Positions 6,951 through 61,182 are shown, counted from the first letter of the stretch. The stretch is 64,000 nt of DNA from Deltaproteobacteria bacterium (GCA_016219225.1 JACRBX010000048.1:11952-75951), one strand, 5' to 3'. Notes: a model not told the origin generated them from the sequence alone. Translations and numbers: made by a program.

Positions 6951-8975
6951 CTAATGCTCGCTGCTGAGGTGAGGCAGGTGACCATAGCCGGTTTGAATCT
7001 TGTACAGGATACGCAGGAGTTCAGCGCAGGCAATGGGTTTGCGCACCACCCGATCGACCCCGCAACGGGACAGTTCGGCCGGATCAAGCTTTTTATCCAC
7101 ACCGGTATAGAGCAGAAAAGGGGTTTTCGGACGTCCGGTCTGTCTGGCGTAATCCAGGGCGGCCCGCCCGAGTTCCAGTCCATTCATCCCGTCCATGCCA
7201 AAATCACACAGGATCACATCATAACGGTCCCCATAAATAGAGGCCAGACCTTTCTCGGCTGTACCGGCGGTCGTAAGATCGACCGGGGAATCTTCAAAGA
7301 ACATCTCCATCATCTTGAGAATATTCTTTTCGTCGTCGATGAGTAAAAATTTTATTTTTGTTTCGTTTGAGGTTCGTTCGCCGGGGATATTTTCCTTCTC
7401 TTCTATGGCCGGAGCCTGGGACCGGGGCAGGATGATGGTAAAAGTGGCCCCTTTCCCCGGACCGCTGTTAACAACCATGTCCCCCTGGTGTTTCTTAATG
7501 ATGCCATAACTGGAAGAAAGGCCCAGACCGCTGCTCTTTTCCCCTTTGGTTGTAAAAAAGGGCTGGAAAAGACGTTGCCGGTTTTCTTCTAAAATCCCTT
7601 CCCCCGTATCGCTGATCGACAAAAGAACATGTTCCGGTCGGTTCTCGGGAGAGATCGTCAGGACACCCCCTTTCGGCATGGCCTCCAGGGCGTTTTTGAT
7701 AAGGTTCACCAGAACTTCGTACAGTTCGGACGGATTACCCCTGACCCGGCCTCCCAAAGGCCGGATATAGTTCAGACGATATTTGCCCGGGTTGGCCGGA
7801 TTGGCCCAGAGTGAAGAGGTGAGCTGCACGGCTTCGGATACCAGGTCACCCAGATCGAACACCTTGGCCTCTTCGATTTTATCGGTCTTGGCTGCGGTAA
7901 ATTCCTTGATCCGCCGGACAATATCGGCTCCTCGATGGCAGGCTTCCATCATGGTCAGAATGGCCTCGCGGCTTTTTCGGATTTCTCCGGAAGCCAGCTT
8001 GTTCAGGGCCGCTTCGCCGCCCCCCAGGATCATTTGAAGAAGGTTATTGAAATTGTGGGCCACGCCGCTGGCCATTTCCCCAACGGCCGACAACCGTTCG
8101 CTTCGAATCAGTTTTTCTTCCATCCGTTTCCGGGCGCTCAAATCCCGGGCAACGCTCAGCACCGCCGGTTTGCGTTGAAAATCGATAAGCCGCGAATGAA
8201 ATTCATAGGGGATGATCTCACCGGATTGGGTAATTGTTTCGAGTTCAAATTGAACCGTTTCTCCGGAGCGGACTTTTTCGCCCATACGCCGCAAAACCTT
8301 TAATTGCGTCGGCCGGACAATGTCGGTAAAGGTCAGGTTAAGCAACTGCTGGCGGGTGTATTGCAGCCGGAGGCAGGCCACGTCGTTGACCTCCAGAAAG
8401 GCTCCCTGGGAATGACTGATAAAGACCGGATCGATGACGTTATCAAACAGTTCCTTATAGCGCAGCAGCCCTTCGTTTTTTTTACGTTCGGTGATATCCC
8501 GGGCCAGGGCTACAAAACATTTTTTCTCCTGAACCTCCACAACCATGCCGGTGACTTCGGCATCGACCAGATCCCCGTCCCTTTTGCGAAAGCTTCTTTC
8601 TTGAATGTGAACAACGCCCTCGGCCACTGCCTTGCGAATATTCTCGATGACCCCTTCGGCACCCGGGGCGAGAATATGTTCGATCCCCATGGTCAGGAGC
8701 TCGGCCCGGGAATAGCCCAACCATCGCAGGGTAAAAGGATTGCAGTCCAAGATGCCGTGGCTCTCCATATCCAGGATATAGATGGCCTCTGGGGCATTTT
8801 CTATAATGGCCCGGAAGTTGGCTTCCGAAGTACTGACCTTTTCCAGGACTTGATTGAATTCAGCGGTGGCTTCCTTGAGCAGGTTGGTCAGGATGTCCGA
8901 CTTACGCTCAGATTGCTCCAGAAGCTCTTCCAACTCCTGGATCCGTTGTTCGAGGCTTTGGATCCTTTCCATCAT
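6951..8975 (-). CDS. Hybrid sensor histidine kinase (coiled-coil, PAS, HisKA/HATPase, C-terminal receiver)
   Basis: H-box SGVAHNFNNLLQ, ATPase motifs DTGEGI...GLGLS, and a C-terminal receiver domain LLIDDE...DVILCDFGMDGMNGLEL. Confidence 0.85.
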   Translation of the reverse strand: MMERIQSLEQRIQELEELLEQSERKSDILTNLLKEATAEFNQVLEKVSTSEANFRAIIENAPEAIYILDMESHGILDCNPFTLRWLGYSRAELLTMGIEHILAPGAEGVIENIRKAVAEGVVHIQERSFRKRDGDLVDAEVTGMVVEVQEKKCFVALARDITERKKNEGLLRYKELFDNVIDPVFISHSQGAFLEVNDVACLRLQYTRQQLLNLTFTDIVRPTQLKVLRRMGEKVRSGETVQFELETITQSGEIIPYEFHSRLIDFQRKPAVLSVARDLSARKRMEEKLIRSERLSAVGEMASGVAHNFNNLLQMILGGGEAALNKLASGEIRKSREAILTMMEACHRGADIVRRIKEFTAAKTDKIEEAKVFDLGDLVSEAVQLTSSLWANPANPGKYRLNYIRPLGGRVRGNPSELYEVLVNLIKNALEAMPKGGVLTISPENRPEHVLLSISDTGEGILEENRQRLFQPFFTTKGEKSSGLGLSSSYGIIKKHQGDMVVNSGPGKGATFTIILPRSQAPAIEEKENIPGERTSNETKIKFLLIDDEKNILKMMEMFFEDSPVDLTTAGTAEKGLASIYGDRYDVILCDFGMDGMNGLELGRAALDYARQTGRPKTPFLLYTGVDKKLDPAELSRCGVDRVVRKPIACAELLRILYKIQTGYGHLPHLSSEH

Positions 8976-10135
8976 CCAATTTCAAGAAGACTCAAGGTAA
9001 TCGTTTCGTTATGGAAATAATTCGGCCCTCCGGCCGAGATCCGGCAGTATTCACCGTAGGTATAAAATCCGATGATGGGAACCGACAGACCGATTTCAGT
9101 CCGAACTCTTTGGATTTCTTCTTCGGTCCGGCGACCCAGAACGATCTTCCGGGCCATGCAGGAATAGCAGAAGGCTATAGACGGGGAATGGCCGCTCAAG
9201 GCGGATTTGGCCAGACCGGTGGCCTGATCGGCGGCCTCCAGGATGGAGGAGACATCACCACAGGTCAGATGGACCAGGGCCCCTTCGGTGATCTCCCCGG
9301 CAAAAGTAATGGAACGCTCCTCCCGGTTGACGGCCATTGTGGCCCGGATCAGATGGTAGTCCTCCTGGCCATCTTCCCCGCACCGTTCCAGAAGACCGAG
9401 CGGATATTCTACCCCAATGACCGGCAGCTTTTCGGCATGACGCCCCAGAAAGCGTTCGTAGACGTTCAAAGCCGGTTCACCATTCAATTCGTAGAGCACA
9501 TTACCCCGGGAACGGGTAACCCGTTTGGCCAGCCCGATCGGCGACCAGCCGCTGCGTACCCCTGTTCCAAGACGGAAATCCCCATAAAAGGCGATGCCGC
9601 AAAGGGTATCCGTGTAGACCTGATCGCCGGCAAATTGCAGGGTCTTCAGAAATTTGCCGTTGTCCCCGGCGGTTCCTCCGGCGATGGGGATATGCCCGCC
9701 CAGGACAGAGGTGATACCCTTTAAGATGGCGCAGCCGTCTCCGGTCAGTCCGTCTGAAAAAATCTGTATATACCGGGGTGGTTTGGAGAAGGCCCCGGCC
9801 AGCCGCCGGCCAGCCCCTTCGCTGTCCTGACCGAGCCCCTGTACCGTGGCGATTTCAAAATCGATCTGATCGGTGGCGATACCCCCCAGGACGACCGAAT
9901 TGGTGCTCAAGCCGTCTCCCGAGATCTCACCGTCAGTGGTACAACCCACCAGATTCTGACTGCCCAGGCTTTCCCCGATACCCTTAAGCAATTCCGGAAT
10001 CCCTGAAGACGGCGCAGAGAATAACCAACAAGCCTTGGGGGTTTGCCCCAGCTCCCTTTCCAGGGTCTGGCCCAGTCGATGGCCCAGGTGCCGGGAAGGT
10101 GACTCGTTGGATCGGATGGTTGCTGCCTTAAACAT
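8972..10135 (-). CDS. FIST domain sensory protein
   Basis: About 387 aa with an architecture typical of FIST N- and C-domains; its stop overlaps the kinase start (ATGA). Confidence 0.7.
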   Translation of the reverse strand: MFKAATIRSNESPSRHLGHRLGQTLERELGQTPKACWLFSAPSSGIPELLKGIGESLGSQNLVGCTTDGEISGDGLSTNSVVLGGIATDQIDFEIATVQGLGQDSEGAGRRLAGAFSKPPRYIQIFSDGLTGDGCAILKGITSVLGGHIPIAGGTAGDNGKFLKTLQFAGDQVYTDTLCGIAFYGDFRLGTGVRSGWSPIGLAKRVTRSRGNVLYELNGEPALNVYERFLGRHAEKLPVIGVEYPLGLLERCGEDGQEDYHLIRATMAVNREERSITFAGEITEGALVHLTCGDVSSILEAADQATGLAKSALSGHSPSIAFCYSCMARKIVLGRRTEEEIQRVRTEIGLSVPIIGFYTYGEYCRISAGGPNYFHNETITLSLLEIG

Positions 10136-10187: not shown

Positions 10188-10796
10188 TTACCCGAACAGG
10201 ACCTGAAGCCGCACCAGTCCCTGACCTTCGGACCAGTCCCGCAAAGATAACTCTGGCGGATCCAAAGGCTGCTGATTCATCTCAGCCCCTGTGCAGCTCT
10301 GCCAGCCCTCCTCCGCCAGCCGATTAAAAAGGTCTTTCATCTGCTGGAGGGAGATCAGTATCCCCCGGTTTAAAAAACAGGGACCCAGGTCTTTGATCAA
10401 CAGGTTGAACAACTTAATGGTCAGAAGGCCCCCCGGATGACTGATCCGGTCCGGGATTTCCTGATAGGTAATGGTGTTACGAAAACAGGCCAGCAGGCCG
10501 CCCGTGCGCATGGTGGCTCCCACCAGCCCCGGCAGGGCCGCGGAAAGGGCCAGGGTATCCCCATTTTTGACTACGGCTGCTCCCATTTCGTCCACCGGCT
10601 TTCCATTTAGAAAAAGGGTCTGGATCTTATTGCCTATCTGCCTGGGGCTGAGCCCGTAAACTTCACAGAGAATATCCCGGATGGTCTGGCTTTGTTCGAT
10701 AAACACACCGAACCCCTGCTGCAAGATAGGAAAGAAAGGGATCATCTGCCCGGTTTTGATAAATAGGCGAATATCGGCCATCTCAGGGGCCTTCAT
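10188..10796 (-). CDS. Hypothetical protein (202 aa) upstream of FIST-HK
   Basis: ORF on the same strand 52 nt upstream of the FIST gene; no clear family. Confidence 0.45.
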   Translation of the reverse strand: MKAPEMADIRLFIKTGQMIPFFPILQQGFGVFIEQSQTIRDILCEVYGLSPRQIGNKIQTLFLNGKPVDEMGAAVVKNGDTLALSAALPGLVGATMRTGGLLACFRNTITYQEIPDRISHPGGLLTIKLFNLLIKDLGPCFLNRGILISLQQMKDLFNRLAEEGWQSCTGAEMNQQPLDPPELSLRDWSEGQGLVRLQVLFG

Positions 10797-11021: not shown

Positions 11022-12764
11022 CTACCAGTTGAAAACAGTATCCAGATCTTCGTCTTTGACCTGAAAAGTCACATTGTGGGGCGGAAGCATCTCGGTCTTG
11101 AAAAATCGGGGTAGCCGGTCGTGTTCGGAAGTAAACCCGGCCTTCTTGTTGAACTCTCTTTCGCCCTTCAGAATCGACTTGCCCAATTCTCCGACATCAT
11201 TGGCCGTCAGGTTCAACCCATAAAAGGCATTGATCATGTCGATCAGGGCCTGAAAGGTCTCCGGCTGATCCAGGACGGCAAAGGCAATGAAAAGGCACAT
11301 CCCCGTGGCATCGACAGCCGCTGTGGCAATTTGCAGATTCCGGGAAAGTTCGATCTGCCCTTCAGGCTTGAGGGGGTCAACCGTACCCCCCACCCCCAGG
11401 ATATTGGTGGCCACGGCATATCCGGCCGTATGGTCAGCCCCCATGGGACTGGTGGCATAGGTCACCCCGATCCCTTGGACCCCCCGGGGGTCATAGGCCG
11501 GCATTGCCTGACCCTTGACAACCGGCACCCGTTCAACACCGAAGACTTTACCGGTAACGGCCGCGCCGTTGCCCAGGATCCTCCCCAGATGCGTCCCCTG
11601 CCCCACTTCATTGAGCAACTGGATGGCGGCCGCGGCATCCCCAAAGGGTACCAGGCCGGCCTCCATGGCCACTCCGATGGTGGCGCCCATTTCGATGGTG
11701 TCCAGACCGAAATCGTCGTCCATCCGGTCCAACCGGGCGATGACATCGATATCGCTGATCCCGCAGTTGCCCCCGTGGGCCCAGACCGTTTCATACTCGG
11801 GCTGCTTGGTTAAAAAGGCCCCGTCTTTGTCATAGAAGGTGCCGGAGCAGCGGATGATGCAGCCCCGATGGCAGGGGTGGGTGGCGCTTCCCTTGCCCCC
11901 CCGTTGTTCTTCCAGGGCGGCCAGAGTCTCGCCGCTGATCATGGAACAATTATCAAAGCGACCCCACATGAAGTTTTTGGTCGGATAGGCACCGGCTTCA
12001 TTGAGGACGTTGGTCAGCACATTGGTACCATAGGCCGGGAGGCCTTCTCCGGTGACCGGATGCTTCTTCAGACCGGCCACGAAAACCTGGTTGGCTTCTT
12101 TGAATTTTTCGGGATCTTTGGGCGGCCGCATATTCAGGCCGCTGTCATCGAGCACAATGGCCTTGACGCCCTTGGAACCCATGACCGCACCCACGCCGCC
12201 GCGGCCGGCGTGACGGGTAGGTCTCAGTTCCATATCGGTGACCGCCACGGAGGCCGCACTCATTTTCCGCTCACCGGCCGGACCGATGGAGATGACGGTA
12301 ATCTTGTCACCATATTGCCCTTTCATCCGGTCCACCAGGTCATAGTTGCCGAGATAACGCAGCCCGTTGTCCGCATTGACTTGGACACCGTCCTTGTTGA
12401 TATAGATGTGATACAGGGTATCGTCCGCCGGTTTTCCCTCCAACACAATGGCCGCATAGCCCAGCCTGGCCAGTACCTGTGCGCCCTGTCCCCCGGCGTT
12501 GGCTTCTTTGATCCCGCCGGTCAGGGGGCTCTTGCACCCGACGGACAACCGGCCGGACATGGCGGCCGTCGTTCCGCTCAACAGGCCCGGGGCGATGACC
12601 AGCTTGTTTTCCGCGCCCAGAGGATGACAGAGCGGCGGCACCTCCTTGGCTATGACAGCCGATGTCATGGCCCGTCCGCCTGCCCCGGCGTAATCCCCCA
12701 GGGATGAAACAGTCGTTTGGGGTTCACCATCCGGTCCCATAATGATTCTTAAGATTTTGTCCAT
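11022..12764 (-). CDS. aor: Aldehyde:ferredoxin oxidoreductase (tungsten-containing AOR family)
   Basis: 580 aa; N-terminal domain with MGPDGEP...GLLSGT and a C-terminal AOR domain. Confidence 0.8.
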   Translation of the reverse strand: MDKILRIIMGPDGEPQTTVSSLGDYAGAGGRAMTSAVIAKEVPPLCHPLGAENKLVIAPGLLSGTTAAMSGRLSVGCKSPLTGGIKEANAGGQGAQVLARLGYAAIVLEGKPADDTLYHIYINKDGVQVNADNGLRYLGNYDLVDRMKGQYGDKITVISIGPAGERKMSAASVAVTDMELRPTRHAGRGGVGAVMGSKGVKAIVLDDSGLNMRPPKDPEKFKEANQVFVAGLKKHPVTGEGLPAYGTNVLTNVLNEAGAYPTKNFMWGRFDNCSMISGETLAALEEQRGGKGSATHPCHRGCIIRCSGTFYDKDGAFLTKQPEYETVWAHGGNCGISDIDVIARLDRMDDDFGLDTIEMGATIGVAMEAGLVPFGDAAAAIQLLNEVGQGTHLGRILGNGAAVTGKVFGVERVPVVKGQAMPAYDPRGVQGIGVTYATSPMGADHTAGYAVATNILGVGGTVDPLKPEGQIELSRNLQIATAAVDATGMCLFIAFAVLDQPETFQALIDMINAFYGLNLTANDVGELGKSILKGEREFNKKAGFTSEHDRLPRFFKTEMLPPHNVTFQVKDEDLDTVFNW

Positions 12765-12811: not shown

Positions 12812-14011
12812 TTAGAGCTCTTCCTGCTGAACCATCTCCGAGGCCTTACATTGCGCCTCTTCCCATACCTTTTTTATTGGCACATGCTGTTCCCGGGCGA
12901 TCCGTTTACAATCCTCATACTCCGGGGCGATGTTGACGGCCCGGTTATCGAACCGGGCCACTTTGCACTGGACCCGCCCGAAGCGGGTGCTGACCTCCTG
13001 GATCTTTCGGTTGAGCCGCAGACGCTGATCCAGACGCCAGCGCAGTCCGATGGTCGTGGTCTCCCGAAAAATAAAATCGGCCAGACCGGGCAGTTGTTCG
13101 AGACGGCAGAGGATGGTCACCAGGACCCCGGTGCGGTTTTTTTTCATCTGCACCGAAGTGAAAAAAATATCCAGGGCGCCCTGTTGTAAAACCCTTTCAA
13201 TCAAAAAATCATAGAACTGCGGGTTCATGTCATCGATGGTCGTTTCAATAACCGCCGTTTGTTCCACTTCGTATTGGGTCAACCCCTGGGCCGTTTGTCC
13301 GATAAAAAGACGCAACAGGTTGGCCAGGGAGCGATCGGCGGTTCCTGCGCCCTGTCCGACCTTTTCCACGGTCATGGCCGGCATGGGCCCGAATTCGGTC
13401 GCCAGGGTGGTCAAAATTGCGGCCCCGGTCGGGGTAAGCAATTCCCCTTGAACCCCGGTAGCATAAACCGGCTTCCCGATGATCAACTCAGCCGTGGCCG
13501 GGGCCGGCACCGGCAGAAGGCCATGAGCGCATTCCACGGTTCCTGTTCCCACATGGAGTGGCGAGCAATGGATCTTCTCGATCCCCAGTCCCCGTATACC
13601 GATAGCCGCACCGACCACATCAATGATGGCGTCCATGGCGCCTACCTCGTGAAAATGGATGGAAGCCACCTCCGTCTGGTGCACTTTGGCCTCGGCCTCG
13701 GCCAGACGGCTAAAGATCTTCAGACTGTCGTCTTTAATAGCCTGATCCAGACGGCTTTCTTCAATGATCGCCCGAATGTCTTCCAGGTGTCGATGATGAT
13801 GATGGTGATGATCCTGGTCGATAGTCACCAGGGCCTGGCTGCCGGACAACCCTTTTTTAACGACCTTCACGACCTTAAGGTCGTAGTGGGACAACGACAG
13901 CTTGGACAGTTCATTTTGTAGATACTCCAGGGGCAATCCCGCATCCAGGAGGGCCCCCAGAATCATATCGCCGCTGGCTCCGGAAAAACAATCAAAATAA
14001 GCGATCTTCAT
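12812..14011 (-). CDS. larC: Nickel-pincer cofactor biosynthesis protein LarC (DUF111 nickel insertase)
   Basis: N-terminus MKIAYFDCFSGASGDM is typical of LarC; a His-rich linker (DHHHHHHRH) is present; 399 aa. Confidence 0.8.
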   Translation of the reverse strand: MKIAYFDCFSGASGDMILGALLDAGLPLEYLQNELSKLSLSHYDLKVVKVVKKGLSGSQALVTIDQDHHHHHHRHLEDIRAIIEESRLDQAIKDDSLKIFSRLAEAEAKVHQTEVASIHFHEVGAMDAIIDVVGAAIGIRGLGIEKIHCSPLHVGTGTVECAHGLLPVPAPATAELIIGKPVYATGVQGELLTPTGAAILTTLATEFGPMPAMTVEKVGQGAGTADRSLANLLRLFIGQTAQGLTQYEVEQTAVIETTIDDMNPQFYDFLIERVLQQGALDIFFTSVQMKKNRTGVLVTILCRLEQLPGLADFIFRETTTIGLRWRLDQRLRLNRKIQEVSTRFGRVQCKVARFDNRAVNIAPEYEDCKRIAREQHVPIKKVWEEAQCKASEMVQQEEL

Positions 14012-14876
14012 TTTCCATTTTCTCCTTTCTGTTCAGGAGGCTTCCATCCGGGTCCAGGGTTGTTAACCGGGAAAGATCGTTATGGCCGACAGGAGGTTCA
14101 AGAGGTTTTTGCTCTTGGCCGGCCGCGAGCTGATTAATGAGGCTGGCTTGATATCCTGCTCCGAAACCGTTGTCGATATTCACCACAGAGACCCCCGAGG
14201 CGCAACTGTTCAGCATGGAAAGCAGGGCGGCCACCCCCCCAAAACTGGCCCCGTAACCCACGCTGGTCGGAACCCCGATCACCGGACAGGAAACCAGCCC
14301 GCCGACAACGCTGGCCAAAGCCCCTTCCATCCCGGCGATGACGATAGCCACCTTGGCCTTGAATAAATCTTCGCAGGAATTCAGAAGGCGGTGCAGGCCG
14401 GCCACCCCCACGTCGTACAGGCGGTCGACCCGGTTGCCGAGGGTTTCGGCCGTAATGGCCGCTTCTTCGGCTACGGGAATATCGGAAGTGCCGGCACAAA
14501 CCACGGCAATCCGGCCGGATTTTATAACCGGCCTGGGCTTGACGACCACAATGCGGCCCATGGGGTGAAATTGACAGTCGGTGGTGATTTCCAAGATAGC
14601 CTCATGGACCAGGCGGTCGGCGCGGGTGGCCAGGATGTTGCCGTGGTGTTTGGCCATCCTCTCCACTATTCCCTGAATCTGCTCCAGGGTTTTACCTTGA
14701 CAATAGATGACTTCCGGGACACCATTGCGCAGACAGCGATGGTGATCCACCTTGGCATAACCCAGATCTTCGAAAGGCAATTTTTTTAAACGCTCCAGAC
14801 CGGTATCGACACTTACCCGCCCCCCCTGGATATTTTCCAATAGATCTTTCAGTTGCTGTCTGTTCATCTTTTCCAA
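13992..14876 (-). CDS. larB: Nickel-pincer cofactor biosynthesis protein LarB (PurE-like carboxylase/hydrolase)
   Basis: Motifs VVCAGTSDIPVAEEA, DVGVAGLHRLL, IAGMEGALASVVGGLV, IGVPTSVGYGA and LNSCASGVSVVNIDNGFGAG match LarB. Confidence 0.8.
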   Translation of the reverse strand: MEKMNRQQLKDLLENIQGGRVSVDTGLERLKKLPFEDLGYAKVDHHRCLRNGVPEVIYCQGKTLEQIQGIVERMAKHHGNILATRADRLVHEAILEITTDCQFHPMGRIVVVKPRPVIKSGRIAVVCAGTSDIPVAEEAAITAETLGNRVDRLYDVGVAGLHRLLNSCEDLFKAKVAIVIAGMEGALASVVGGLVSCPVIGVPTSVGYGASFGGVAALLSMLNSCASGVSVVNIDNGFGAGYQASLINQLAAGQEQKPLEPPVGHNDLSRLTTLDPDGSLLNRKEKMENEDRLF

Positions 14877-16411
14877 TTCCTGTTTCCGTTTTTCGAAAAA
14901 CGGGCTTTAGCGGTAAAAGGGTTCTGCCAGGGATCCGGCGGTTCAAGGCGAAAGAGGATTACCCGGCCAAAAACGATCCGGTAGAGCCGAAAACTTTTCT
15001 GTTTGATACATCCCCAAAAAACGCCGCTCTGGTAAAAAGCCTGCTCGGATAAAAAGAAGAAAGCAAAAAACGGAAACCCGAGCCTCGGTTTCTTGCGCAG
15101 GTATTCTACCAGGGTCGGGAAGACTATCAAGGCCGTCCCAATCAGCGCCCAATCGCTGAAGGCCCATAATAAAACAAGGATAAGCAGCAGGTAATAGCGG
15201 ATCAGATGATAAGTCAGAAAAAAAATCAAGTGGAAATGGCCTCTGACTACGGCCTCAAAAACCAGACCCCAGCCCGGAATTTGATCCATTTTCCCGCCTA
15301 AACGAATCCGTCGGTAAATAGTCTCGGCTGCCAGGATTCCGATGGCTGGGACCAGCCAGTAAACCGAGCGCGTCCAAAGGGCCGTCAGAACCGCCAGAAA
15401 GAGGCCCAGTCCGCCGGCCTGCCAGGGAAATCGCTTGGAAATCTTGGGGTACCGTTCATACAAGAGGGCCTCGGAGGTACCATAATCGAACCGGCGCCGG
15501 TACCCGGCCATAAAACGGTTGCGGTGTTTATGCCGGACAACGCCTTTGGGAACATAGGTCAGATGATGTCCTGCAGCCATCAGTTTCCAGCATAAATCCA
15601 CGTCCTCGCCCACTCTCAGATCTGCATCCAGCCCGCCGTGCCGATTAAGGGCCTCTTTGCGGACGAGCAAGTTACAGGTGGGGACATAAAAAGGGGAGTG
15701 CTCCCCTTGACCCATGATCGGACGGGGTCCCATATCCAGAGCCGAGCAGACTGCTTCATAACGGTCCATCCGGCTTTCCCGAAAAAAGCCCTCCACCCGC
15801 CCGCCCACCAGGACCAGCCGAGGGTCTTGAAAATAGGGGACCAGATCCTCCAACCACCCCGGATCGGCCAGACAATCGCTATCGATAAAGGCGATGATTT
15901 CTCCCCGGGCCGCGGCCGTGCCGGCATTGCGGGCCGCTGCCGGCCCTTGATTACGGGAAAGGGTAATCAACTGGACCCCGAAGCCTTTAACCACCGCCGC
16001 GCTATCATCCTTTGAAGCGTCATCCACCACGATGATTTCCAGTTTGGACCGGGGATAGCGGAGGGCGGACAACGATTCGAGGCAGGCCGCGATCTCGGCC
16101 GCCCGGTTATAGACCGGAATGATGATAGTGACGAAGGGATAAAAAGGTGCTGGAGAGGGGGCCCATTCCAGAAGGCCGGCCTGATGGAGCCTATCCAGAA
16201 AAGCCCTTTCGGCCGGCCGATTAACGAGGTCTTGATTCTGATCCTGCAAGATACCCTGCTCCAATTTCTTTAGCATCTCAAAGGCCGGGCCATTGACTTT
16301 GATGAGCCTCAACGGATTTTCCTGAATAACCATTCCCCCTTCGGCCGCCGGTTGGAGTCGCACCCCGGACTTCAGGGAATAAGTGCCTTGAAAAGCTGAG
16401 CCGCTCATCAT
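14864..16411 (-). CDS. mftF: Mycofactocin-system-type family 2 glycosyltransferase (MftF-like) with a C-terminal membrane region
   Basis: GT2 core IIIPVYNRAAEI...VVDDASKDDS...IDSDC...GGRV. The start ATG at 16411 overlaps the mftC TGA (ATGATGA), and the gene's 3' end overlaps the larB start by 13 nt. Confidence 0.7.
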   Translation of the reverse strand: MMSGSAFQGTYSLKSGVRLQPAAEGGMVIQENPLRLIKVNGPAFEMLKKLEQGILQDQNQDLVNRPAERAFLDRLHQAGLLEWAPSPAPFYPFVTIIIPVYNRAAEIAACLESLSALRYPRSKLEIIVVDDASKDDSAAVVKGFGVQLITLSRNQGPAAARNAGTAAARGEIIAFIDSDCLADPGWLEDLVPYFQDPRLVLVGGRVEGFFRESRMDRYEAVCSALDMGPRPIMGQGEHSPFYVPTCNLLVRKEALNRHGGLDADLRVGEDVDLCWKLMAAGHHLTYVPKGVVRHKHRNRFMAGYRRRFDYGTSEALLYERYPKISKRFPWQAGGLGLFLAVLTALWTRSVYWLVPAIGILAAETIYRRIRLGGKMDQIPGWGLVFEAVVRGHFHLIFFLTYHLIRYYLLLILVLLWAFSDWALIGTALIVFPTLVEYLRKKPRLGFPFFAFFFLSEQAFYQSGVFWGCIKQKSFRLYRIVFGRVILFRLEPPDPWQNPFTAKARFSKNGNRNWKR

Positions 16412-17439
16412 CCTGTCCCGGCCATCAGAGGTTTGATCTGGACACAGTTCACCAGACATCCGGGGTCCGGCAATCCCAGCCTTCTTTGGGTGTGGTAGGC
16501 AATGGCCGGACAGCCTCCGTGGCACAGGTCGAAGCGGTAACAGCTTTCACAGGATTGTATTTCCAGTCCACGAAAAGACTGAAACACGGCAGAGGTCTCC
16601 CAAATGAAACCGAAGTCTTCCTCCGGCAGCCTTCCGGCCAGAAACTCCAGCTCCTGTAAAAAGGCACAGGGGTAAACCTGGCCCTCGGGAGACAGACAAC
16701 AGGTGAGCTTGCCGGCCCCGCACATGTTTAATCCTAAAGAGCGCCGTTCTTCAGAGGTGACCGAAAAAAAGGAATCTCCGGTGGAAACAGCCAGGTGACG
16801 GCCCAGCCAAAGAGAGAAATCGGCCATTTGCTCAGGGGTGACATTCAGCCCGGACCAGAACCGTTTTCCTCGGCCGGAAGGTCTGAACCGCGAGACCCGC
16901 AGCTTAGCCCCGTAAGCGGCTGCCAGGCCGACCAGCTTGTCTAATTCCGGAAAACTGTATCGGGTCAGGACCGTGTTGATGCTGACCTCGATGTCTCGTC
17001 GGCGTAAACAGTCCAGGGCCTTGAGCACCCGCTGGAAACTCCCCGGACCCCGAACAGCATCATTGGAAGAGGCCGTGGCCCCATCCAGACTGACCTGGAT
17101 ATAGACCAGCCGATGATCCAATCTCCGGGCCGTCTCTTCGTCGATCAAGGTGCCGTTGGTACTGATGCAGGTGACTATCCCTTTTTGATGGGCATAATCC
17201 ATTAAGTCCAAAAAATCCGGGCGCAGGAATGGTTCCCCGCCCCCGATATTCACTTGAAAAACCTTGAGTCCGGCCAACTGATCGATGATTCCGAACCCCT
17301 GGTCCGTGGAAAGCTCGCCCGGTTGTTTTTGCCCGGAATCGGAAAGACAGTGCAGACAACTCAAATTACAGGCATAAGTCACCTCCCAGGTGACGTTTAC
17401 CGGGGCCGAAAGGCCCATCTCAACAAACCGATTCCCCAT
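16408..17439 (-). CDS. mftC: Mycofactocin maturase radical SAM/SPASM enzyme MftC
   Basis: CNLSCLHC cluster motif; FQVNIGGGEPFLRPDF, VQVSLDGATASSNDAVRGPGSF, LRVSRFRPSGRG, GLNMCGAG and C-terminal SPASM cysteines align closely with MftC. Confidence 0.9.
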   Translation of the reverse strand: MGNRFVEMGLSAPVNVTWEVTYACNLSCLHCLSDSGQKQPGELSTDQGFGIIDQLAGLKVFQVNIGGGEPFLRPDFLDLMDYAHQKGIVTCISTNGTLIDEETARRLDHRLVYIQVSLDGATASSNDAVRGPGSFQRVLKALDCLRRRDIEVSINTVLTRYSFPELDKLVGLAAAYGAKLRVSRFRPSGRGKRFWSGLNVTPEQMADFSLWLGRHLAVSTGDSFFSVTSEERRSLGLNMCGAGKLTCCLSPEGQVYPCAFLQELEFLAGRLPEEDFGFIWETSAVFQSFRGLEIQSCESCYRFDLCHGGCPAIAYHTQRRLGLPDPGCLVNCVQIKPLMAGTG

Positions 17440-17701
17440 GAATGAGACCTTTTTCTTCCAGAAGTTGTATCAGTTGCCTTAGCTGCCGGTCGATCCATTC
17501 CCGGGGCCGGGTGCTTCCGGCCTGCAGCGCTTCCGCCCAGTCATTGATCCGCGTTCTCCCCTCAAAAAGACCTTCGTCGAGAAACTCTCCGCTGGCCAGA
17601 AAATAAAGCCGGGGCCCCCGGTAGTTATAAAAAAGAAGGCCGAATTTTTCCCGGCGCACCTGAACCCCGACCTCTAAATGATAAATCCGATTGGATTCCA
17701 T
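17420..17701 (-). CDS. mftB: Mycofactocin chaperone MftB (PqqD-family RRE protein)
   Basis: 93 aa; the motif EKFGLLFYNYRGPRLYFLAS matches the MftB FGALxYHxxxRRLxFL signature. Confidence 0.8.
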   Translation of the reverse strand: MESNRIYHLEVGVQVRREKFGLLFYNYRGPRLYFLASGEFLDEGLFEGRTRINDWAEALQAGSTRPREWIDRQLRQLIQLLEEKGLIHGESVC

Positions 17702-17942: not shown

Positions 17943-18077
17943 CTAATATATCCCGCAAATGCCGTCTACGGCCAGTTCTTCAAGAACAAAATCCTCGAGG
18001 ATCTTCGGCTGTTCCTGAATCTGCTCATCGGCCCTGATTTCTATGGTTTTGTTTTCCATTTCCAGTACTGAGATCAT
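17943..18077 (-). CDS. mftA: Mycofactocin precursor peptide MftA (44 aa, ends VDGICGIY)
   Basis: C-terminus EELAVDGICGIY versus canonical IDGMCGVY. Start chosen at MISV... because GGAGAAATACC precedes that ATG; the longer tracked ORF is treated as an upstream extension. Confidence 0.75.
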   Translation of the reverse strand: MISVLEMENKTIEIRADEQIQEQPKILEDFVLEELAVDGICGIY

Positions 18078-18110
18078 GGTATTTCTCCTTTGCTGTTTTC
18101 GTATTAAACC

Positions 18111-18291: not shown

Positions 18292-19101
18292 TTACGGCGC
18301 CTTGGCTGTCCAGCCGCCATCAACGGTAATCATGTTGCCGGTGATGCAGCGGGCTTCGTCGGTCACCAGCCAGCGTACAGCCCGGCCGATATCCTCGGGG
18401 GAGACCTCGGGGTCTTTGATCATGTGGCCGGCAAAAAATTGTTGCTTGGCCTCTTCCCCCTCCAGTCCGAAGTAAGCGGCTATTCCTTGCATCATGGGGG
18501 TCCAGACCGTGCCGGGACAGACCACATTGCAGCGGATATTGTGATCGGCCACCTCCATGGCTATTGATTTATTGAGACCGATGATCCCGTGTTTGGCCGC
18601 ACAATAATGGCCGCCCATGCCAAAGCCGCGCTGGCCGCCCACTGAAGAAATGCTGACCACGTTGCCACTATGCTGCTCAATCATATGGGGGAGAACATAC
18701 CGGCAGCATAAAAAGGTTCCCTTCAGATGGGTGTCCAGGACCTCGTCCCAGATTTCTTCGTCCATTTCGGCTATAGCCACCATGGAGGTGTTGCCGGCAT
18801 TATTGACCAGGATGTCGATCCGGCCGAAGACCTCCATCACCTGTTCCACCATGGCTTCCACGTCGCCCCTCTGCCGGACATCACACTTGAGTCCCATGGC
18901 CCGGCGCCCCATAGCCTGGAGGCCGGCCACAGCCTCGTTCATTGATTCTTCAGTGGACATATCGTAGGGGATGGTATCCATGTTGGCACAGATGTCGGCC
19001 ACGGCGATATGGGCCCCTTCTTCGGCCAGACAGCGGGCAATCGCCAAACCGTTGCCCCTGGCTCCTCCGGTGACGATGGCCACCTTACCTTCCAGTTTCA
19101 T
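18292..19101 (-). CDS. Mycofactocin-coupled short-chain dehydrogenase/reductase (SDR subfamily)
   Basis: N-terminus KVAIVTGGARGNGLAIARCLAEEGAHIAVADIC matches the mycofactocin-associated SDR signature (TGAARGQG...DIC); immediately upstream of mftA. Confidence 0.7.
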   Translation of the reverse strand: MKLEGKVAIVTGGARGNGLAIARCLAEEGAHIAVADICANMDTIPYDMSTEESMNEAVAGLQAMGRRAMGLKCDVRQRGDVEAMVEQVMEVFGRIDILVNNAGNTSMVAIAEMDEEIWDEVLDTHLKGTFLCCRYVLPHMIEQHSGNVVSISSVGGQRGFGMGGHYCAAKHGIIGLNKSIAMEVADHNIRCNVVCPGTVWTPMMQGIAAYFGLEGEEAKQQFFAGHMIKDPEVSPEDIGRAVRWLVTDEARCITGNMITVDGGWTAKAP

Positions 19102-19161: not shown

Positions 19162-19473
19162 TTAAAATTTTTGCAGCAGTTCCTGGAGCATGCGGATATC
19201 CTCGGAGGCCACACTGGCGCCATACTCAGCCACCTGAAAATCCAGCTCCTGCTGCAAGGAAGACAAAATCATCAAGGCATCCAGGTAATAGACCAGCTGC
19301 GGATTATGTTTAAAATCATCCTGATACCGTTCTAACAGGCTGTTGACCTCCAGCGCTTTCAACCGGTCGAAATAAGTCGCCTGATCGATCCGGTCCCGCA
19401 GGAAGCCGTCCATGAGATCGATGGCCTGATGGGCCGCCTTAACCACAGGTTCATGAATCGGATGGGGCATCAT
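19162..19473 (-). CDS. Hypothetical protein (103 aa)
   Basis: ORF overlapping the next gene by 4 nt. Confidence 0.4.
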   Translation of the reverse strand: MMPHPIHEPVVKAAHQAIDLMDGFLRDRIDQATYFDRLKALEVNSLLERYQDDFKHNPQLVYYLDALMILSSLQQELDFQVAEYGASVASEDIRMLQELLQKF

Positions 19474-19799
19474 ATAGGCCTTTCGGGTGAAGATTCAAGT
19501 CCATAACGGGCCAGGCTGGCCTCAGCCCTGGGGGTGATGATAAAACGGATGACGGGGCCGCTATCCGGTCGATCCACCCGCTCCCGCTCGACCAGCCCCA
19601 GGCGAAGCAGCGTCATTAACCGGTTCTTCACCCCCTGGGAGGAGATATTCAGGATCCGGCCGAAGGTATGGCAGTGAAACTCCCCAGGTTTGCGGTGGTG
19701 GCAGGTGCCGGTACAATAAGTGCCGCCTTCTTTTTTCAAAATATTCAGGATCTCGATCAAATCTGCACTTAATGGCGGCCCGGCCATGGCCATATTCAT
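19470..19799 (-). CDS. Putative Cys/His-containing winged-helix DNA-binding protein
   Basis: HTH-like segment RILNISSQGVKNRLMTLLRLGLVERE and a CTGTCHHRKPGEFHCH motif. Confidence 0.4.
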   Translation of the reverse strand: MNMAMAGPPLSADLIEILNILKKEGGTYCTGTCHHRKPGEFHCHTFGRILNISSQGVKNRLMTLLRLGLVERERVDRPDSGPVIRFIITPRAEASLARYGLESSPERPI

Positions 19800-20158
19800 C
19801 AGGTCATCCGGACTACAAACGTTTTGGTCTTATGGATCAATTGGTCCAACTCAGCGGTGAGATCTTTGGTGATCTCCAGAGACTTCGCCTCGTCACCAGC
19901 GGTCATGCTGTCCTTCAGCTCCAAGGCCTTTTCCTTCATGTCCCAGGCGGTTTCCCCGGCCTTAACGGTTTTCAGGTAGGCCATTTTAATTATTTTTTCA
20001 AGTTCAGCACTCCGTTCCCCTAATTGAGAGGTGATCAGCAAAGCGGCTTCCTGGGATAATCCCTGGGAGTTGGCTTGAATGGCCTGGAATACCTCCAGCA
20101 TTTCACGAGTCAAGGTAGGGCCTTTACCCACCACGTTCGGTCTGCTCTTTTCCGTCAT
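19799..20158 (-). CDS. Hypothetical protein (119 aa)
   Basis: ORF directly abutting the adjacent genes on the same strand. Confidence 0.4.
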   Translation of the reverse strand: MTEKSRPNVVGKGPTLTREMLEVFQAIQANSQGLSQEAALLITSQLGERSAELEKIIKMAYLKTVKAGETAWDMKEKALELKDSMTAGDEAKSLEITKDLTAELDQLIHKTKTFVVRMT

Positions 20159-20161
20159 TGA

Positions 20162-21088
20162 TTAACTGCTCCTTTCCATGGCTTCTTGATAGCCTTGTAA
20201 CTTTGGCTTATGATGATCACGACCCATTTCCCAGGGCCGCTCTGACACCACTACTTTTTCACGTGGCGGCAATTGCAAAAGCAGCCGGTCGGCAATCCCC
20301 ATCATGGCTTTGGCCGACAAAGACTCCGGATTTTTATAGACAATGGGTATACCGCTGTCGGCCGCTTCGGAATATTGTCCATCCAGAGGGATCCCCCCTA
20401 AAAAAGGGATTTCGAAAGTTTTGGCCAGCCGCTCGCCGCGGTCTTTTCCAAAAAAGTGTTCGATCCGTCCACAATCCGGACATTGGTAGTGGTTCATATT
20501 TTCAATGAGTCCCAGAATGGGCGCCTTCAATTCCCGGGCGGCATTAATGGCCTTGCTGCAGACAATGGTGGAGATCTCCTGGGGTGTGGTGACCACGATC
20601 ATGCCGTCCAGGTCCGGTATGGACTTCATGATGGTGATCGGTTCATCCCCTGTCCCCGGCGGCAGGTCCACGAATAAAAAATCCATTTCATACCACTTGA
20701 TGGAACTCAAAAACTGCCTGAGCACCCGGGCCTTATATTGTCCACGCCACATGATGGGGGTCATCTCTGTCGGCCAGATCAAGGCCACAGACATAACCTT
20801 CAACCCCTGGGCGGTTATGACCGGATCGATTCCGTGAGAGCCGTGCAGGATATCCCGCATCTCAGTCCGGATGCCGACCATCTTGGGAACGCTCGGACCA
20901 TGGACGTCGGCATCGAAAATCCCCACGACCAGATCTTTCTTGCGAACGGCGGCTGCCAGGTTGACCGTCACACTGGTCTTGCCCACGCCGCCTTTTCCGC
21001 TGATAATGGCGATTTTATAATTGACCTTGGCCATGGCATCGCGAATAGGGCCATGGTGATGATGCGGCTGGTGATCCATTGAATCCAT
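20162..21088 (-). CDS. apbC: Mrp/NBP35 (ApbC) family Fe-S cluster carrier ATPase
   Basis: Walker A IAIISGKGGVGKTSV, a CPDCG motif and an N-terminal His-rich stretch. Confidence 0.85.
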   Translation of the reverse strand: MDSMDHQPHHHHGPIRDAMAKVNYKIAIISGKGGVGKTSVTVNLAAAVRKKDLVVGIFDADVHGPSVPKMVGIRTEMRDILHGSHGIDPVITAQGLKVMSVALIWPTEMTPIMWRGQYKARVLRQFLSSIKWYEMDFLFVDLPPGTGDEPITIMKSIPDLDGMIVVTTPQEISTIVCSKAINAARELKAPILGLIENMNHYQCPDCGRIEHFFGKDRGERLAKTFEIPFLGGIPLDGQYSEAADSGIPIVYKNPESLSAKAMMGIADRLLLQLPPREKVVVSERPWEMGRDHHKPKLQGYQEAMERSS

Positions 21089-23826: not shown

Positions 23827-24074
23827 TACTGATCTCCTTTCTTACTTGCAAAGTAGTGGATGGTCATATTTTCCAGATTAAAAAGTTTCCGATAGATCGA
23901 GCCGGATGGAAGGTCGTACCAACCCCCTTTCGGTGTTTTAGACTTGATAAATCGATGCCGTTCTCCGGATCCCCGGAATACCCGCTGAGGACTTCGATCG
24001 TTCGCATCGTTTCATCGGTCCGGATTTATCTCTGCAAGAAATAAGGTCAGCAGACATTATATGGCGGGGACAAA

Positions 24075-26955: not shown

Positions 26956-26966
26956 GGCATCCCCGT

Positions 26967-61172: not shown

Positions 61173-61182
61173 AGGAGATCCA

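What the first reader, a model, noticed from the sequence alone, without database searches (positions are those of the whole stretch)
12812..16411. Nickel-pincer cofactor genes larB-larC translationally coupled to the mycofactocin glycosyltransferase
mftC-mftF overlap by ATGA, mftF-larB overlap by 13 nt and larB-larC overlap by 20 nt, which makes one operon spanning two normally unrelated cofactor pathways. No larE or larA is present in the window. Co-expression of a peptide-derived redox cofactor with NPN-building enzymes has not, to my knowledge, been described. It hints at a shared client enzyme (the adjacent AOR, Fe-ADH and SDR are candidates) or a hybrid product.
Basis: partly seen in the sequence, partly recalled or inferred. 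Interest (0 to 1): 0.7.

Follow-up and report, generated by a model that had tools for sequence, protein, structure and literature searches.

The report
Nickel-pincer genes inside variant mycofactocin operon
In a group of uncultured sulfate-reducer relatives, the genes that build the nickel-pincer cofactor sit in one operon with genes for a variant of the peptide-derived cofactor mycofactocin and two lactate-racemase-like iron-sulfur proteins. This points to an undescribed anaerobic redox system that uses both rare cofactors.

Summary
mftC/mftF overlap by ATGA, mftF/larB by 4 or 13 nt, and larB/larC by 20 nt. All four genes pass curated family cut-offs.

The linkage is not strain-specific. In an MftF-anchored scan of species-representative genomes, 23 of 80 loci carry larB-larC after mftF, all from Desulfobacterota. 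In 19 of these, larE lies between mftF and larB; the window's lineage has lost it.

Lar-linked loci have a variant precursor ending GIY: 20 of 20, against 0 of 21 GVY loci.

The unit is larger than reported. It is a co-directional gene string behind a sigma-54-type promoter, in this order:
- two DUF362 Fe-S proteins, an Mrp Fe-S carrier and three small proteins
- a mycofactocin-coupled SDR and mftABCF
- larBC
- AOR

Best reading: Lar enzymes supply NPN to DUF362a, which works in one redox chain with the SDR and variant mycofactocin. NPN loading and the substrate are inferred, not shown.

No paper found links mycofactocin with lar genes.

The parts
25765..27036 (-). PAS sensor histidine kinase at the head of the cluster
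   Evidence: Pfam PAS_4, HisKA and HATPase_c. Syntenic in relatives.
24396..25730 (-). Sigma-54-dependent response regulator
   Evidence: Pfam Response_reg, Sigma54_activat and HTH_8. Found directly upstream of DUF362a in most related loci.
24074..24089 (-). Sigma-54-type -24/-12 promoter-like site, AGGCACGATACTTGCT
   Evidence: The only 1-mismatch match to TGGCAC-N5-TTGCW in the window. GGCAC-N5-TTGC lies 200-440 nt upstream of DUF362a in 31 of 90 loci. It is found upstream of mftB in 0 of 56, larB in 0 of 51 and AOR in 0 of 16.
22468..23826 (-). DUF362a: LarA-fold protein with a 2x[4Fe-4S]-type ferredoxin insert; proposed NPN client
21185..22294 (-). DUF362b with a 4Fe-4S dicluster domain
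   Evidence: Pfam DUF362 plus Fer4 families. It keeps both His positions, but the Lys-tether position is Tyr or variable.
20162..21088 (-). Mrp/NBP35-type Fe-S cluster carrier ATPase
   Evidence: Pfam ParA (NUBPL) at 285 bits. NCBIfam MrpORP and ApbC hits fall below their cut-offs.
19799..20158 (-). Small conserved protein sm119
   Evidence: No family hit. Conserved in the clade and in Pelotomaculum. The C-terminus is always V(V/I)RMT.
19470..19799 (-). Small conserved protein sm109 (weak wHTH signal)
   Evidence: Weak MarR_2 and HTH_24 hits. Conserved in the clade. Homologue in L086.
19162..19473 (-). Small conserved protein sm103
   Evidence: No family hit. Conserved in the clade and in the Firmicutes clusters L084 and L086.
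18292..19101 (-). Mycofactocin-coupled SDR, subfamily 3
   Evidence: NCBIfam NF040490 at 542 bits vs cut-off 385.
17943..18077 (-). mftA, variant-type mycofactocin precursor (44 aa, ends VDGICGIY)
   Evidence: ORF preceded by an AGGAG ribosome-binding site. NF040489 variant_MftA at 58.4 bits vs 30; TIGR03969 at 27.6 vs 25.
17420..17701 (-). mftB (RRE-type chaperone)
   Evidence: TIGR03967 at 48.4 bits vs 33.
16408..17439 (-). mftC radical SAM/SPASM maturase
   Evidence: TIGR03962 at 367.5 bits vs 265.
14864..16411 (-). mftF glycosyltransferase
   Evidence: TIGR03965 at 376 bits vs 280. Its 3' tail runs into what is the 3' end of larE in L001.
13992..14876 (-). larB (P2CMN synthase); start at TTG 14876 or ATG 14867
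   Evidence: NF033503 at 299 bits vs 175. 252 bits to solved LarB 7mj0. dN/dS 0.10-0.17.
12812..14011 (-). larC (CTP-dependent nickel insertase; fused LarC1+LarC2; His-rich stretch HHHHHHRH)
   Evidence: TIGR00299 at 224 bits vs 90 and NF052512 at 142 vs 50. 373 bits to full-length LarC 12bi.
11022..12764 (-). Tungsten-type aldehyde:ferredoxin oxidoreductase; 47-nt gap after larC, with a ribosome-binding site
   Evidence: Pfam AFOR_N at 189 bits and AFOR_C at 260 bits. Present after larC in about a third of related loci.
10188..10796 (-). Conserved hypothetical protein (202 aa) that follows AOR
   Evidence: No family hit. Found with AOR in L001, L003, L004, L013 and L081.
8972..10135 (-).
   Evidence: Pfam FIST at 157 bits and FIST_C at 105 bits.
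6951..8975 (-). PAS hybrid histidine kinase/response regulator; 4-nt overlap with the FIST gene
   Evidence: NCBIfam histidine-kinase families. Syntenic in relatives.

Best explanation
larB and larC are genuine nickel-pincer nucleotide (NPN) biosynthesis genes. They belong to a conserved, probably sigma-54-driven operon of uncultured Desulfobacterota.

The operon joins three modules:
1. Two LarA-fold DUF362 iron-sulfur proteins, an Mrp/NBP35 Fe-S carrier and three small proteins.
2. A mycofactocin-coupled SDR plus the genes for a variant mycofactocin: MftA ending GIY, MftB, MftC and MftF. No MftD or MftE is present.
3. larE-larB-larC, often followed by a tungsten AOR. larE has been lost from this position in the window's lineage and must act in trans.

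Most likely mechanism:
- The Lar enzymes make NPN.
- NPN is loaded into DUF362a, which keeps the His/Lys/His that hold NPN in LarA.
- DUF362a uses NPN to accept or donate a hydride and relays the electrons through its [4Fe-4S] clusters.
- The likeliest hydride partner is variant mycofactocin. Its redox centre is an alpha-keto/alpha-hydroxy amide, chemically like LarA substrates.
- DUF362a would thus connect the SDR (and AOR) to ferredoxin-level carriers.

On this reading the two cofactors serve one redox chain rather than forming a hybrid molecule.

Shown: gene identities, coupling, conservation, the LarA fold and the motif.
Inferred: NPN loading of DUF362a, its substrate and the direction of electron flow.
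For: Gene identities and junctions.

Conservation:
- 23 of 80 MftF-anchored species genomes carry lar genes right after mftF. All are Desulfobacterota.
- GIY precursor with lar genes: 20 of 20. GVY precursor with lar genes: 0 of 21.

One unit:
- 17 co-directional genes with short gaps or overlaps.
- A sigma-54 site lies only at the head of the string and recurs in relatives.
- No convincing internal terminator.

DUF362a as client:
- Pfam clan CL0471 holds both DUF362 and LarA's DUF2088 (PMC11770544).
- H166, K176 and H192 are invariant over homologues of 38-85% identity.
- These residues align in the same register with LarA H174, K184 and H200 in three separate alignments.
- DUF362a is the most constrained protein of the cluster.
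- The cluster DUF362a-DUF362b-Mrp-SDR-small proteins-larB-larC-larE occurs without mft genes nearby in Pelotomaculum thermopropionicum SI and in two metagenome loci.
- Of the DUF362a-anchored contigs with at least 9 kb held downstream, 18 of 23 carry lar genes.

Independent second link:
- In 14 Chloroflexota loci (mostly Dehalococcoidia) and one Desulfatiglandales locus, a true LarA homologue lies within a few kb downstream of mftF. It scores 181 bits on Lar_N and keeps the H-x9-K-x15-H motif.

larB and larC stay under purifying selection despite the loss of larE.

Precedent: NPN enzymes outside LarA have been found from lar gene neighbourhoods (PMC13524815).
Against: - DUF362a does not reach the Lar_N gathering score (13 vs 23.3 bits).
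- hhalign probabilities are only 3-4%, so the residue equivalence rests on register, spacing, invariance and fold.
- LarA His108 has no conserved counterpart.
- Three lar+mft loci have no DUF362a within 10 kb upstream: L007, L013 and L021.
- More distant DUF362a homologues of about 40% identity (L168, L169), and also L086, have no larBC within 10 kb.
- No larE lies in the 64-kb window, so NPN synthesis here depends on an unseen gene.
- No transcript or biochemical data exist.
- All relatives are MAGs or metagenome contigs.
Confidence: 0.5

Rival explanations
1. The lar genes are only co-located or co-regulated with the mft genes. NPN goes to an unlinked canonical LarA-type racemase elsewhere in the genome and has no biochemical connection to mycofactocin, the SDR or DUF362a.
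For: - Many genomes carry larBCE away from larA (stated in PMC13524815).
- Only 64 kb of this genome can be seen.
- L086 and L087 show a canonical LarA homologue 8 kb from a DUF362a cluster.
Against: - The lar position after mftF or mftC is conserved across several Desulfobacterota families.
- There is a perfect GIY/lar association.
- Start and stop codons overlap.
- No canonical LarA lies within 10 kb in any lar-linked locus.
- larBCE also lies next to DUF362a in Firmicutes.
Confidence: 0.2
2. The NPN-type cofactor, or an adenine dinucleotide variant of it, is used by the SDR in place of NAD. The 'mycofactocin-coupled' SDR3 would then be a nickel-pincer enzyme.
For: - An SDR-type protein is the most constant neighbour. 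This is SDR3 in the clade and in L123, and an extended SDR in Pelotomaculum and in the distant DUF362a-small protein-SDR trios.
- The minimal loci L007 and L021 contain SDR3, mftABCF and larBC but no DUF362a.
- NAD(P)-type oxidoreductases often neighbour lar genes, and one AKR and one ornithine cyclodeaminase are reported to use pincer cofactors (PMC13524815).
Against: - SDR3 keeps the glycine-rich motif, the Asp after strand 2, NNAG and the Ser/Tyr/Lys catalytic residues of NAD-dependent SDRs (read from the sequence).
- It scores 285 bits on the actinobacterial mycofactocin-SDR model TIGR03971, just under its cut-off of 300. From my knowledge of the family, those actinobacterial enzymes work with NAD; I did not check whether their genomes carry lar genes.
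- No His/Lys pincer motif was identified in it.
Confidence: 0.12
3. Lar enzymes take part in making the variant mycofactocin itself. This could be a hybrid or nickel-bearing product, or a replacement for the missing MftD/MftE steps.
For: - Direct coupling to mftF or mftC.
- Strict association with the GIY precursor.
- No MftD or MftE in the window or the loci.
Against: - LarB and LarC are canonical equivalogs close to enzymes that act on NaAD-derived nucleotides.
- The same lar genes sit in DUF362a clusters with no mft genes nearby.
- GVY-type loci of anaerobes also lack MftD and MftE within the DNA examined, so that absence is not specific to lar-linked loci.
Confidence: 0.08
4. After the loss of larE, larB and larC in this lineage are decaying remnants without function.
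For: larE is absent from the window and from its closest relatives L081-L083. A deletion scar is visible.
Against: - Both reading frames are intact.
- dN/dS is 0.10-0.17 between larE-less relatives.
- Four other lineages also keep larBC without an adjacent larE.
Confidence: 0.03

Closest known systems
Lactate racemase system LarA/LarB/LarC/LarE of Lactiplantibacillus plantarum (NPN cofactor)
   Same: LarB and LarC are clear orthologues. LarE is present in most relatives. A LarA-fold protein with the His/Lys/His positions is encoded in the same gene string.
   Different: - The LarA-like protein is a DUF362 family member, not DUF2088.
- It carries a two-cluster ferredoxin insert and lacks a His108 equivalent.
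- LarE of the relatives has the CXXC-C motif of the [4Fe-4S]-dependent type (PMC9283937).
- The genes sit inside a mycofactocin operon.
- There is no 2-hydroxy-acid racemase context.
Mycofactocin system mftABCDEF (plus MftG) of mycobacteria
   Same: MftA, MftB, MftC, MftF and a mycofactocin-type SDR nicotinoprotein are all present above curated cut-offs.
   Different: - The precursor ends GIY, not GVY (NCBIfam 'variant-type' model NF040489).
- There is no MftD, MftE or GMC-type MftG.
- The hosts are strict anaerobes.
- lar genes and DUF362 Fe-S proteins are part of the operon.
GVY-type mft loci of Actinomycetota, Chloroflexota and Firmicutes MAGs that carry 'mycofactocin system' OYE2 plus ETF alpha/beta plus FixC
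   Same: Same mftABC(F) core, with a redox accessory module attached to it.
   Different: The accessory module is flavin-based instead of DUF362/Mrp/Lar. The two module types are almost mutually exclusive at the locus level (exceptions L126, L149 and L153).
[quoted passage not shown]
   Same: These are candidate or proven pincer enzymes outside the LarA family, found through lar clusters that lack LarA. They catalyse hydride-transfer chemistry.
   Different: The folds differ (TIM barrel and Rossmann). They have no Fe-S relay and no link to mycofactocin.
LarA homologue next to mftF in Dehalococcoidia (found here; loci such as L054, L062, L064, L067, L069 and L080)
   Same: A LarA-superfamily protein with H-x9-K-x15-H sits at a mycofactocin locus.
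   Different: It is a true DUF2088 LarA homologue, convergent to mftF. No lar biosynthesis genes lie within 10 kb. The precursor is GVY and the OYE2/ETF/FixC module is present.

Membership tests
LarB (P2CMN synthase) | Score above the curated equivalog cut-off of NF033503 | tested here: met
   299.3 bits vs 175.
LarB (P2CMN synthase) | Full-length similarity to an experimentally characterised LarB | tested here: met
   252 bits; residues 8-250 align with residues 6-249 of L. plantarum LarB 7mj0.
LarB (P2CMN synthase) | Carboxylation and hydrolysis of NaAD | not testable with these tools
   Needs an enzyme assay.
LarC (nickel insertase) | LarC1 and LarC2 domains above curated cut-offs, fused in one protein | tested here: met
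   TIGR00299 at 224 bits vs 90; NF052512 at 142 vs 50. 373 bits to full-length LarC 12bi.
LarC (nickel insertase) | His-rich nickel-binding stretch in the N-terminal part | tested here: met
   The sequence reads DQDHHHHHHRH at residues 65-75.
LarE (sulfur insertase) | PP-loop (SGGxDS) protein matching TIGR00268 near larB/larC | tested here: not met
   None in the 64-kb window. Present between mftF and larB in 19 of 23 related genomes, at 312-321 bits vs 150.
LarA / DUF2088 (NPN-dependent racemases) | Pfam Lar_N (PF09861) at the gathering threshold | tested here: not met
   DUF362a scores 13 bits vs 23.3. No other window protein matches.
LarA / DUF2088 (NPN-dependent racemases) | LarA fold | tested here: met
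LarA / DUF2088 (NPN-dependent racemases) | Cofactor-holding residues: catalytic His174, tether Lys184 and nickel ligand His200 | tested here: met
   H166, K176 and H192 are invariant in 18 homologues. They fall in the same register in three alignments. The alignment statistics themselves are weak.
LarA / DUF2088 (NPN-dependent racemases) | Second catalytic His (His108) | tested here: not met
   hhalign places LarA His108 on F127 of the DGFFG stretch (low confidence).
LarA / DUF2088 (NPN-dependent racemases) | Binds NPN | not testable with these tools
   Needs protein mass spectrometry and metal analysis.
Mycofactocin system | MftA precursor with the conserved C-terminal core | tested here: met
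   NF040489 variant_MftA at 58.4 bits vs 30; TIGR03969 at 27.6 vs 25.
Mycofactocin system | C-terminal Gly-Val-Tyr | tested here: not met
   The window peptide ends Gly-Ile-Tyr, as in every lar-linked locus with a detected precursor except L126.
Mycofactocin system | MftB, MftC and MftF above curated cut-offs | tested here: met
   48 vs 33, 367 vs 265 and 376 vs 280 bits.
Mycofactocin system | MftD (FMN oxidase) and MftE (creatininase-type peptidase) | tested here: not met
   No FMN_dh or creatininase family hit for any ORF of the window or for the called genes of L081. The rest of the genome is unseen.
Mycofactocin-coupled SDR | Score above the NF040490 cut-off | tested here: met
   542 bits vs 385.

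The most novel reading that the evidence does not exclude
DUF362a is the first nickel-pincer enzyme that carries out net redox chemistry through an iron-sulfur relay. Its substrate is variant mycofactocin. It would oxidise the alpha-hydroxy amide (or the amine precursor) by hydride transfer to NPN and pass the electrons to ferredoxin-level carriers. In that role it would be the anaerobic counterpart of MftG, or of the O2-dependent MftD. Two rare cofactors would then be wired into a single electron-transfer chain. The LarA homologue next to mftF in Dehalococcoidia would be a second version of the same link.
Probability: 0.3. Interest if true: 0.9.

Novelty: new variant of a known kind. Interest (0 to 1): 0.78.

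Why it matters
Two open questions become testable.

1. Which enzymes use the nickel-pincer cofactor in the many organisms that have larBCE but no LarA? This locus nominates DUF362, a large family of unknown function. The nomination rests on fold, motif and gene-neighbourhood evidence, and the family includes a version with a built-in Fe-S relay.

2. How is mycofactocin made and recycled in strict anaerobes, which lack MftD, MftE and MftG? The GIY-type system is tied to NPN genes. The GVY-type system is tied to OYE/ETF/FixC or, in Dehalococcoidia, also to a LarA homologue.

A functional link between the two cofactors would be new biochemistry. It would also give a defined gene set for heterologous reconstitution.

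Tried and rejected
- **PDB sequence and profile searches with DUF362a** found only ferredoxin domains, not LarA. The LarA link came from structure.
- **hhalign of the DUF362a alignment** against one LarA homologue and against a five-sequence LarA alignment gave the same register, but probabilities of only 3-4%.
- **LarE search in the window** by motif and by tblastn found nothing.
- **MftD/MftE reference sequences** were sought in actinobacterial (L027) and Pelotomaculum (L022) loci. Those loci carry OYE2, ETF and FixC instead.
- **Rfam scan** of 8-25 kb gave no match.
- **The NPAD ornithine cyclodeaminase paper** is not held. Supplements of PMC13524815 are not held either, so I could not see whether DUF362, SDR or radical SAM families appear in its neighbour lists.
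- **An anaerobic benzene-cluster paper** (PMC13101534) proved unrelated.
- **'Chance adjacency' and 'different PurE/DUF111 subfamily'** were both rejected on the evidence.
- **Not checked:** whether larE lies elsewhere in the genome of the window's lineage.

Full report
**1. Observation.**
On the minus strand the window encodes mftA (17943-18077), mftB (17420-17701), mftC (16408-17439), mftF (14864-16411), larB (13992-14876 or -14867), larC (12812-14011) and an AOR (11022-12764).
- mftC and mftF share an ATGA overlap.
- mftF overlaps larB by 13 nt if larB starts at TTG 14876, or by 4 nt (again ATGA) if it starts at ATG 14867. Gene callers used the ATG form in the closest relatives. The upstream codon is ATG in L001 and L083.
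- larB overlaps larC by 20 nt, with AGGAG about 10 nt before the larC ATG.

**2. Gene identities.**
All pass NCBI's curated cut-offs:

| Protein | Bits | Cut-off |
|---|---|---|
| MftB | 48 | 33 |
| MftC | 367 | 265 |
| MftF | 376 | 280 |
| LarB | 299 | 175 |
| LarC1 | 224 | 90 |
| LarC2 | 142 | 50 |
| SDR upstream of mftA (NF040490, mycofactocin-coupled SDR subfamily 3) | 542 | 385 |

- LarB aligns end to end with solved L. plantarum LarB (252 bits). LarC aligns with solved full-length LarC (373 bits). The 'different PurE/DUF111 subfamily' escape is therefore closed.
- MftA matches the curated 'variant-type mycofactocin precursor' model NF040489 (58 vs 30 bits) better than the classical model.

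**3. Extent of the unit in the window.**
Seventeen genes run in the same direction, with overlaps or short gaps. In order they are: DUF362a (22468-23826), DUF362b with a Fer4 domain, an Mrp/NBP35 ATPase, three small proteins, SDR3, mftA, mftB, mftC, mftF, larB, larC, AOR, a 202-aa protein, the FIST protein and a hybrid kinase.
- A sigma-54 response regulator and a PAS kinase lie immediately upstream.
- The only 1-mismatch match to the sigma-54 consensus in the whole window lies 250 nt upstream of DUF362a.
- GGCAC-N5-TTGC recurs upstream of DUF362a in 31 of 90 related loci. It occurs upstream of SDR3 in one locus, L021, which lacks DUF362a. It never occurs upstream of mftB, larB or AOR. About 0.15 chance matches would be expected upstream of DUF362a (my estimate from pattern length).
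- No convincing terminator lies inside the string.
- Co-transcription is therefore likely, but it has not been shown.

**4. Conservation.**
An MftF alignment was used to scan one genome per species, giving 80 loci.
- tblastn shows larB and larC directly after mftF in 23 loci. All are Desulfobacterota: Desulfobacteraceae, Desulfomonilaceae, Syntrophaceae, Syntrophobacteraceae, Desulfobaccales and Ca. Desulfacyla.
- None of the other 57 loci has them. These are Actinomycetota, Chloroflexota, Pelotomaculum and other Desulfobacterota.
- Every lar-linked locus in which the precursor could be read has MftA ending CGIY (20 of 20). Every precursor in a lar-free locus ends CGVY (21 of 21).
- These counts are not phylogenetically independent, but they span several families.

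**5. larE.**
- In 19 of the 23 loci an 850-bp gene lies between mftF and larB. It is LarE (TIGR00268, 312-321 bits vs 150). It has the CXXC-C motif of the [4Fe-4S]-dependent type (PMC9283937).
- The window and its closest relatives (L081-L083, MftF 85-94% identical) lack it. L001 (80% identical) has it.
- The last 25 nt or so before larB in the window match the 3' end of larE in L001. The mftF reading frame now runs through them. The mftF-larB coupling is therefore a secondary result of a larE deletion.
- larB and larC remain under purifying selection in the larE-less lineage (dN/dS 0.10-0.17). This implies a LarE function supplied from elsewhere in the genome.

**6. The DUF362 proteins.**
- DUF362a is 84-91% identical across the clade, where MftF is about 50% identical. 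It has the lowest dN/dS of the cluster (0.036).
- Pfam places DUF362 and LarA's DUF2088 in one clan (PMC11770544).
- DUF362a gives a sub-threshold Lar_N hit covering profile positions 144-203.
- H166, K176 and H192 are invariant in homologues of 38-85% identity. Their spacing (10 and 16) matches LarA His174, Lys184 (cofactor tether) and His200 (nickel ligand).
- The LarA positions were read from the alignment to 8ezf/5huq. The register is the same in the Pfam hit and in two hhalign runs, although the hhalign probabilities are low.
- LarA His108 has no conserved counterpart.
- DUF362a also carries a two-cluster ferredoxin insert.
- DUF362b keeps the two His positions but not the Lys.

**7. Which module do the lar genes follow?**
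- In Pelotomaculum thermopropionicum SI the order is sigma-54 regulator, DUF362a, DUF362b, Mrp, an extended SDR, two small proteins, larB, larC, larE. No mft genes lie nearby. That genome is reported to have an mft cluster (PMC3023750).
- Two metagenome loci, L116 and L120, have the same order.
- A DUF362a-anchored metagenome scan gave 23 contigs with at least 9 kb held downstream. Eighteen carry lar genes, 16 of them with mftC.
- One subgroup runs mftC-larE-larB-larC with no mftF. L123 has DUF362a, Mrp, SDR3 and larEBC with no mft genes.
- Conversely, L007, L013 and L021 have SDR3, mftABCF and lar genes but no DUF362a within 10 kb.
- Distant DUF362a homologues of about 40% identity form a DUF362a-small protein-extended SDR trio with no lar genes nearby.
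- So there are three modules that combine: DUF362/Mrp, SDR/mft and lar. The lar genes associate with both of the others.

**8. Two further comparative results.**
- First, GVY-type mft loci carry 'mycofactocin system' OYE2, ETF alpha/beta and FixC. At the locus level this module and the DUF362/Mrp/Lar module are nearly mutually exclusive (exceptions L126, L149 and L153).
- Second, in 14 Chloroflexota loci (mostly Dehalococcoidia) and one Desulfatiglandales locus, a true LarA homologue lies within a few kb downstream of mftF. It is often directly convergent to mftF. It scores 166-181 bits on Lar_N and keeps H-x9-K-x15-H in all 15 loci.
- This is an independent second association between mycofactocin loci and LarA-superfamily proteins.

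**9. Mechanism.**
- Shown: gene identities, coupling, conservation, the LarA fold and the motif of DUF362a.
- Inferred: LarB, LarC and a trans-encoded LarE make NPN. NPN is loaded into DUF362a. DUF362a performs hydride transfer and relays electrons through its Fe-S clusters, with Mrp as a possible cluster donor.
- From published mycofactocin chemistry (my own knowledge), the redox-active group of mycofactocin is an alpha-keto/alpha-hydroxy amide. This is close to the 2-hydroxy/2-keto acids handled by LarA enzymes. Mycobacterial MftD and MftG depend on O2 or on respiration.
- A pincer/Fe-S enzyme that oxidises or reduces variant mycofactocin would close the SDR-mycofactocin cycle in an anaerobe. 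This last step is speculative (about 0.3).
- The Ile-for-Val change predicts an ethyl-methyl instead of a gem-dimethyl lactam.

**10. Rivals.**

| Rival | Confidence |
|---|---|
| Mere co-location, with an unlinked LarA elsewhere | 0.2 |
| SDR3 as the pincer client | 0.12 |
| Lar enzymes acting in mycofactocin maturation or forming a hybrid product | 0.08 |
| Decaying remnant after larE loss | 0.03 |

Evidence for and against each is given in the rival section.

**11. Literature.**
- No paper in the searchable library holds 'mycofactocin' together with LarB, LarC, LarE, lactate racemase or nickel-pincer.
- DUF362 appears in the NPN literature only as an outgroup for the LarA tree.
- The 2026 NphT paper shows that lar neighbourhoods reveal non-LarA pincer enzymes. 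It does not mention mycofactocin, DUF362, SDR or radical SAM.
- NCBI already curates 'variant-type MftA' and 'SDR subfamily 3' models, so the variant mycofactocin system is recognised at the annotation level. Its tie to lar and DUF362 genes appears to be undescribed.

**12. Limits.**
- All relatives are MAGs or metagenome contigs.
- Only 64 kb of this genome is visible.
- The residue mapping between DUF362a and LarA rests on weak sequence alignments plus a strong fold match.
- There are no expression or biochemical data.

Noticed in passing
window 19799-20158 (-); homologues in L002-L023, L081-L112 and L084: The small protein sm119 always ends in V(V/I)RMT before the stop codon. This holds in 37 of 37 Desulfobacterota homologues and in the Pelotomaculum-type ones. 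The 109-111 aa proteins next to distant DUF362a homologues (L168, L169) end in GT(I/V)LT. A strictly conserved C-terminal tail suggests that the C-terminus itself is functional.
   Followed up: partly
L038, L041, L049, L050, L052, L054, L062, L064, L065, L067-L069, L078, L080 (Chloroflexota, mostly Dehalococcoidia) and L048: A true LarA homologue lies next to or a few kb downstream of mftF, often convergent to it. It scores 166-181 bits on Lar_N and its H-x9-K-x15-H motif is intact. These loci have a GVY precursor and OYE2/ETF/FixC, and no larBCE within 10 kb.
   Followed up: partly
L022, L027-L036, L044-L047, L053-L055, L065, L068-L071, L078, L079: GVY-type mft loci outside mycobacteria carry 'mycofactocin system' OYE2, ETF alpha/beta and FixC between mftC and mftF. 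No MftD or MftE was found in the stretches examined.
   Followed up: partly
window 14864-14960 compared with L001 1980-2120: This looks like a scar of a larE deletion. The 25 nt or so before larB match the 3' end of larE in L001. The former larE stop codon TGA is now TGG. The mftF frame reads through this stretch, which gives MftF a longer C-terminal tail.
   Followed up: yes
window 17725-17744, 18091-18154 and 18175-18226: Three copies of a roughly 50-nt element lie around mftA: two upstream of mftA and one upstream of mftB. The element contains a GC-rich hairpin (GGCACCACGAAxCATGAAAA ... CCATGCCCC/GGGGCATGG). It may act in RNA processing, attenuation or stability. There is no Rfam match.
   Followed up: partly
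window 18233-18282: Three and a half tandem copies of a 14-nt unit (CTCCGAACTCCGAA-like) lie just downstream of the SDR3 stop codon.
   Followed up: no
window 58863-61980 (+), with small ORFs up to 63424: A TonB-dependent receptor is followed by a DUF4198 protein. From memory, this family is associated with nickel or cobalt uptake. Small membrane-protein ORFs follow and were not scanned. This could be a metal supply system for the nickel cofactor.
   Followed up: no
window 2383-3858 (+) and 5068-6900 (+): A Pup-ligase family protein (375 bits) is unusual outside Actinomycetota. Downstream of it lies a B12-binding radical SAM protein of the RiPP C-methyltransferase type. That radical SAM gene is divergent from the hybrid kinase gene at the end of the cluster and is syntenic in L001 and L081.
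   Followed up: no
window 8972-10135 (-): The gene read as Fe-ADH by the first stage is a FIST plus FIST_C sensor protein. It overlaps a PAS hybrid histidine kinase by 4 nt. This pair is conserved at the 3' end of the cluster in most relatives.
   Followed up: yes
window 33725-57229 (-): This is a long catabolic gene string. It holds two TRAP transporters, three acyl-CoA ligases, an HpaB-like hydroxylase, a xanthine-dehydrogenase-type molybdoenzyme (three subunits), an acyl-CoA dehydrogenase, FAD-linked oxidases with a CCG/Fe-S subunit, and a carboxyltransferase. It has no obvious link to the finding.
   Followed up: no
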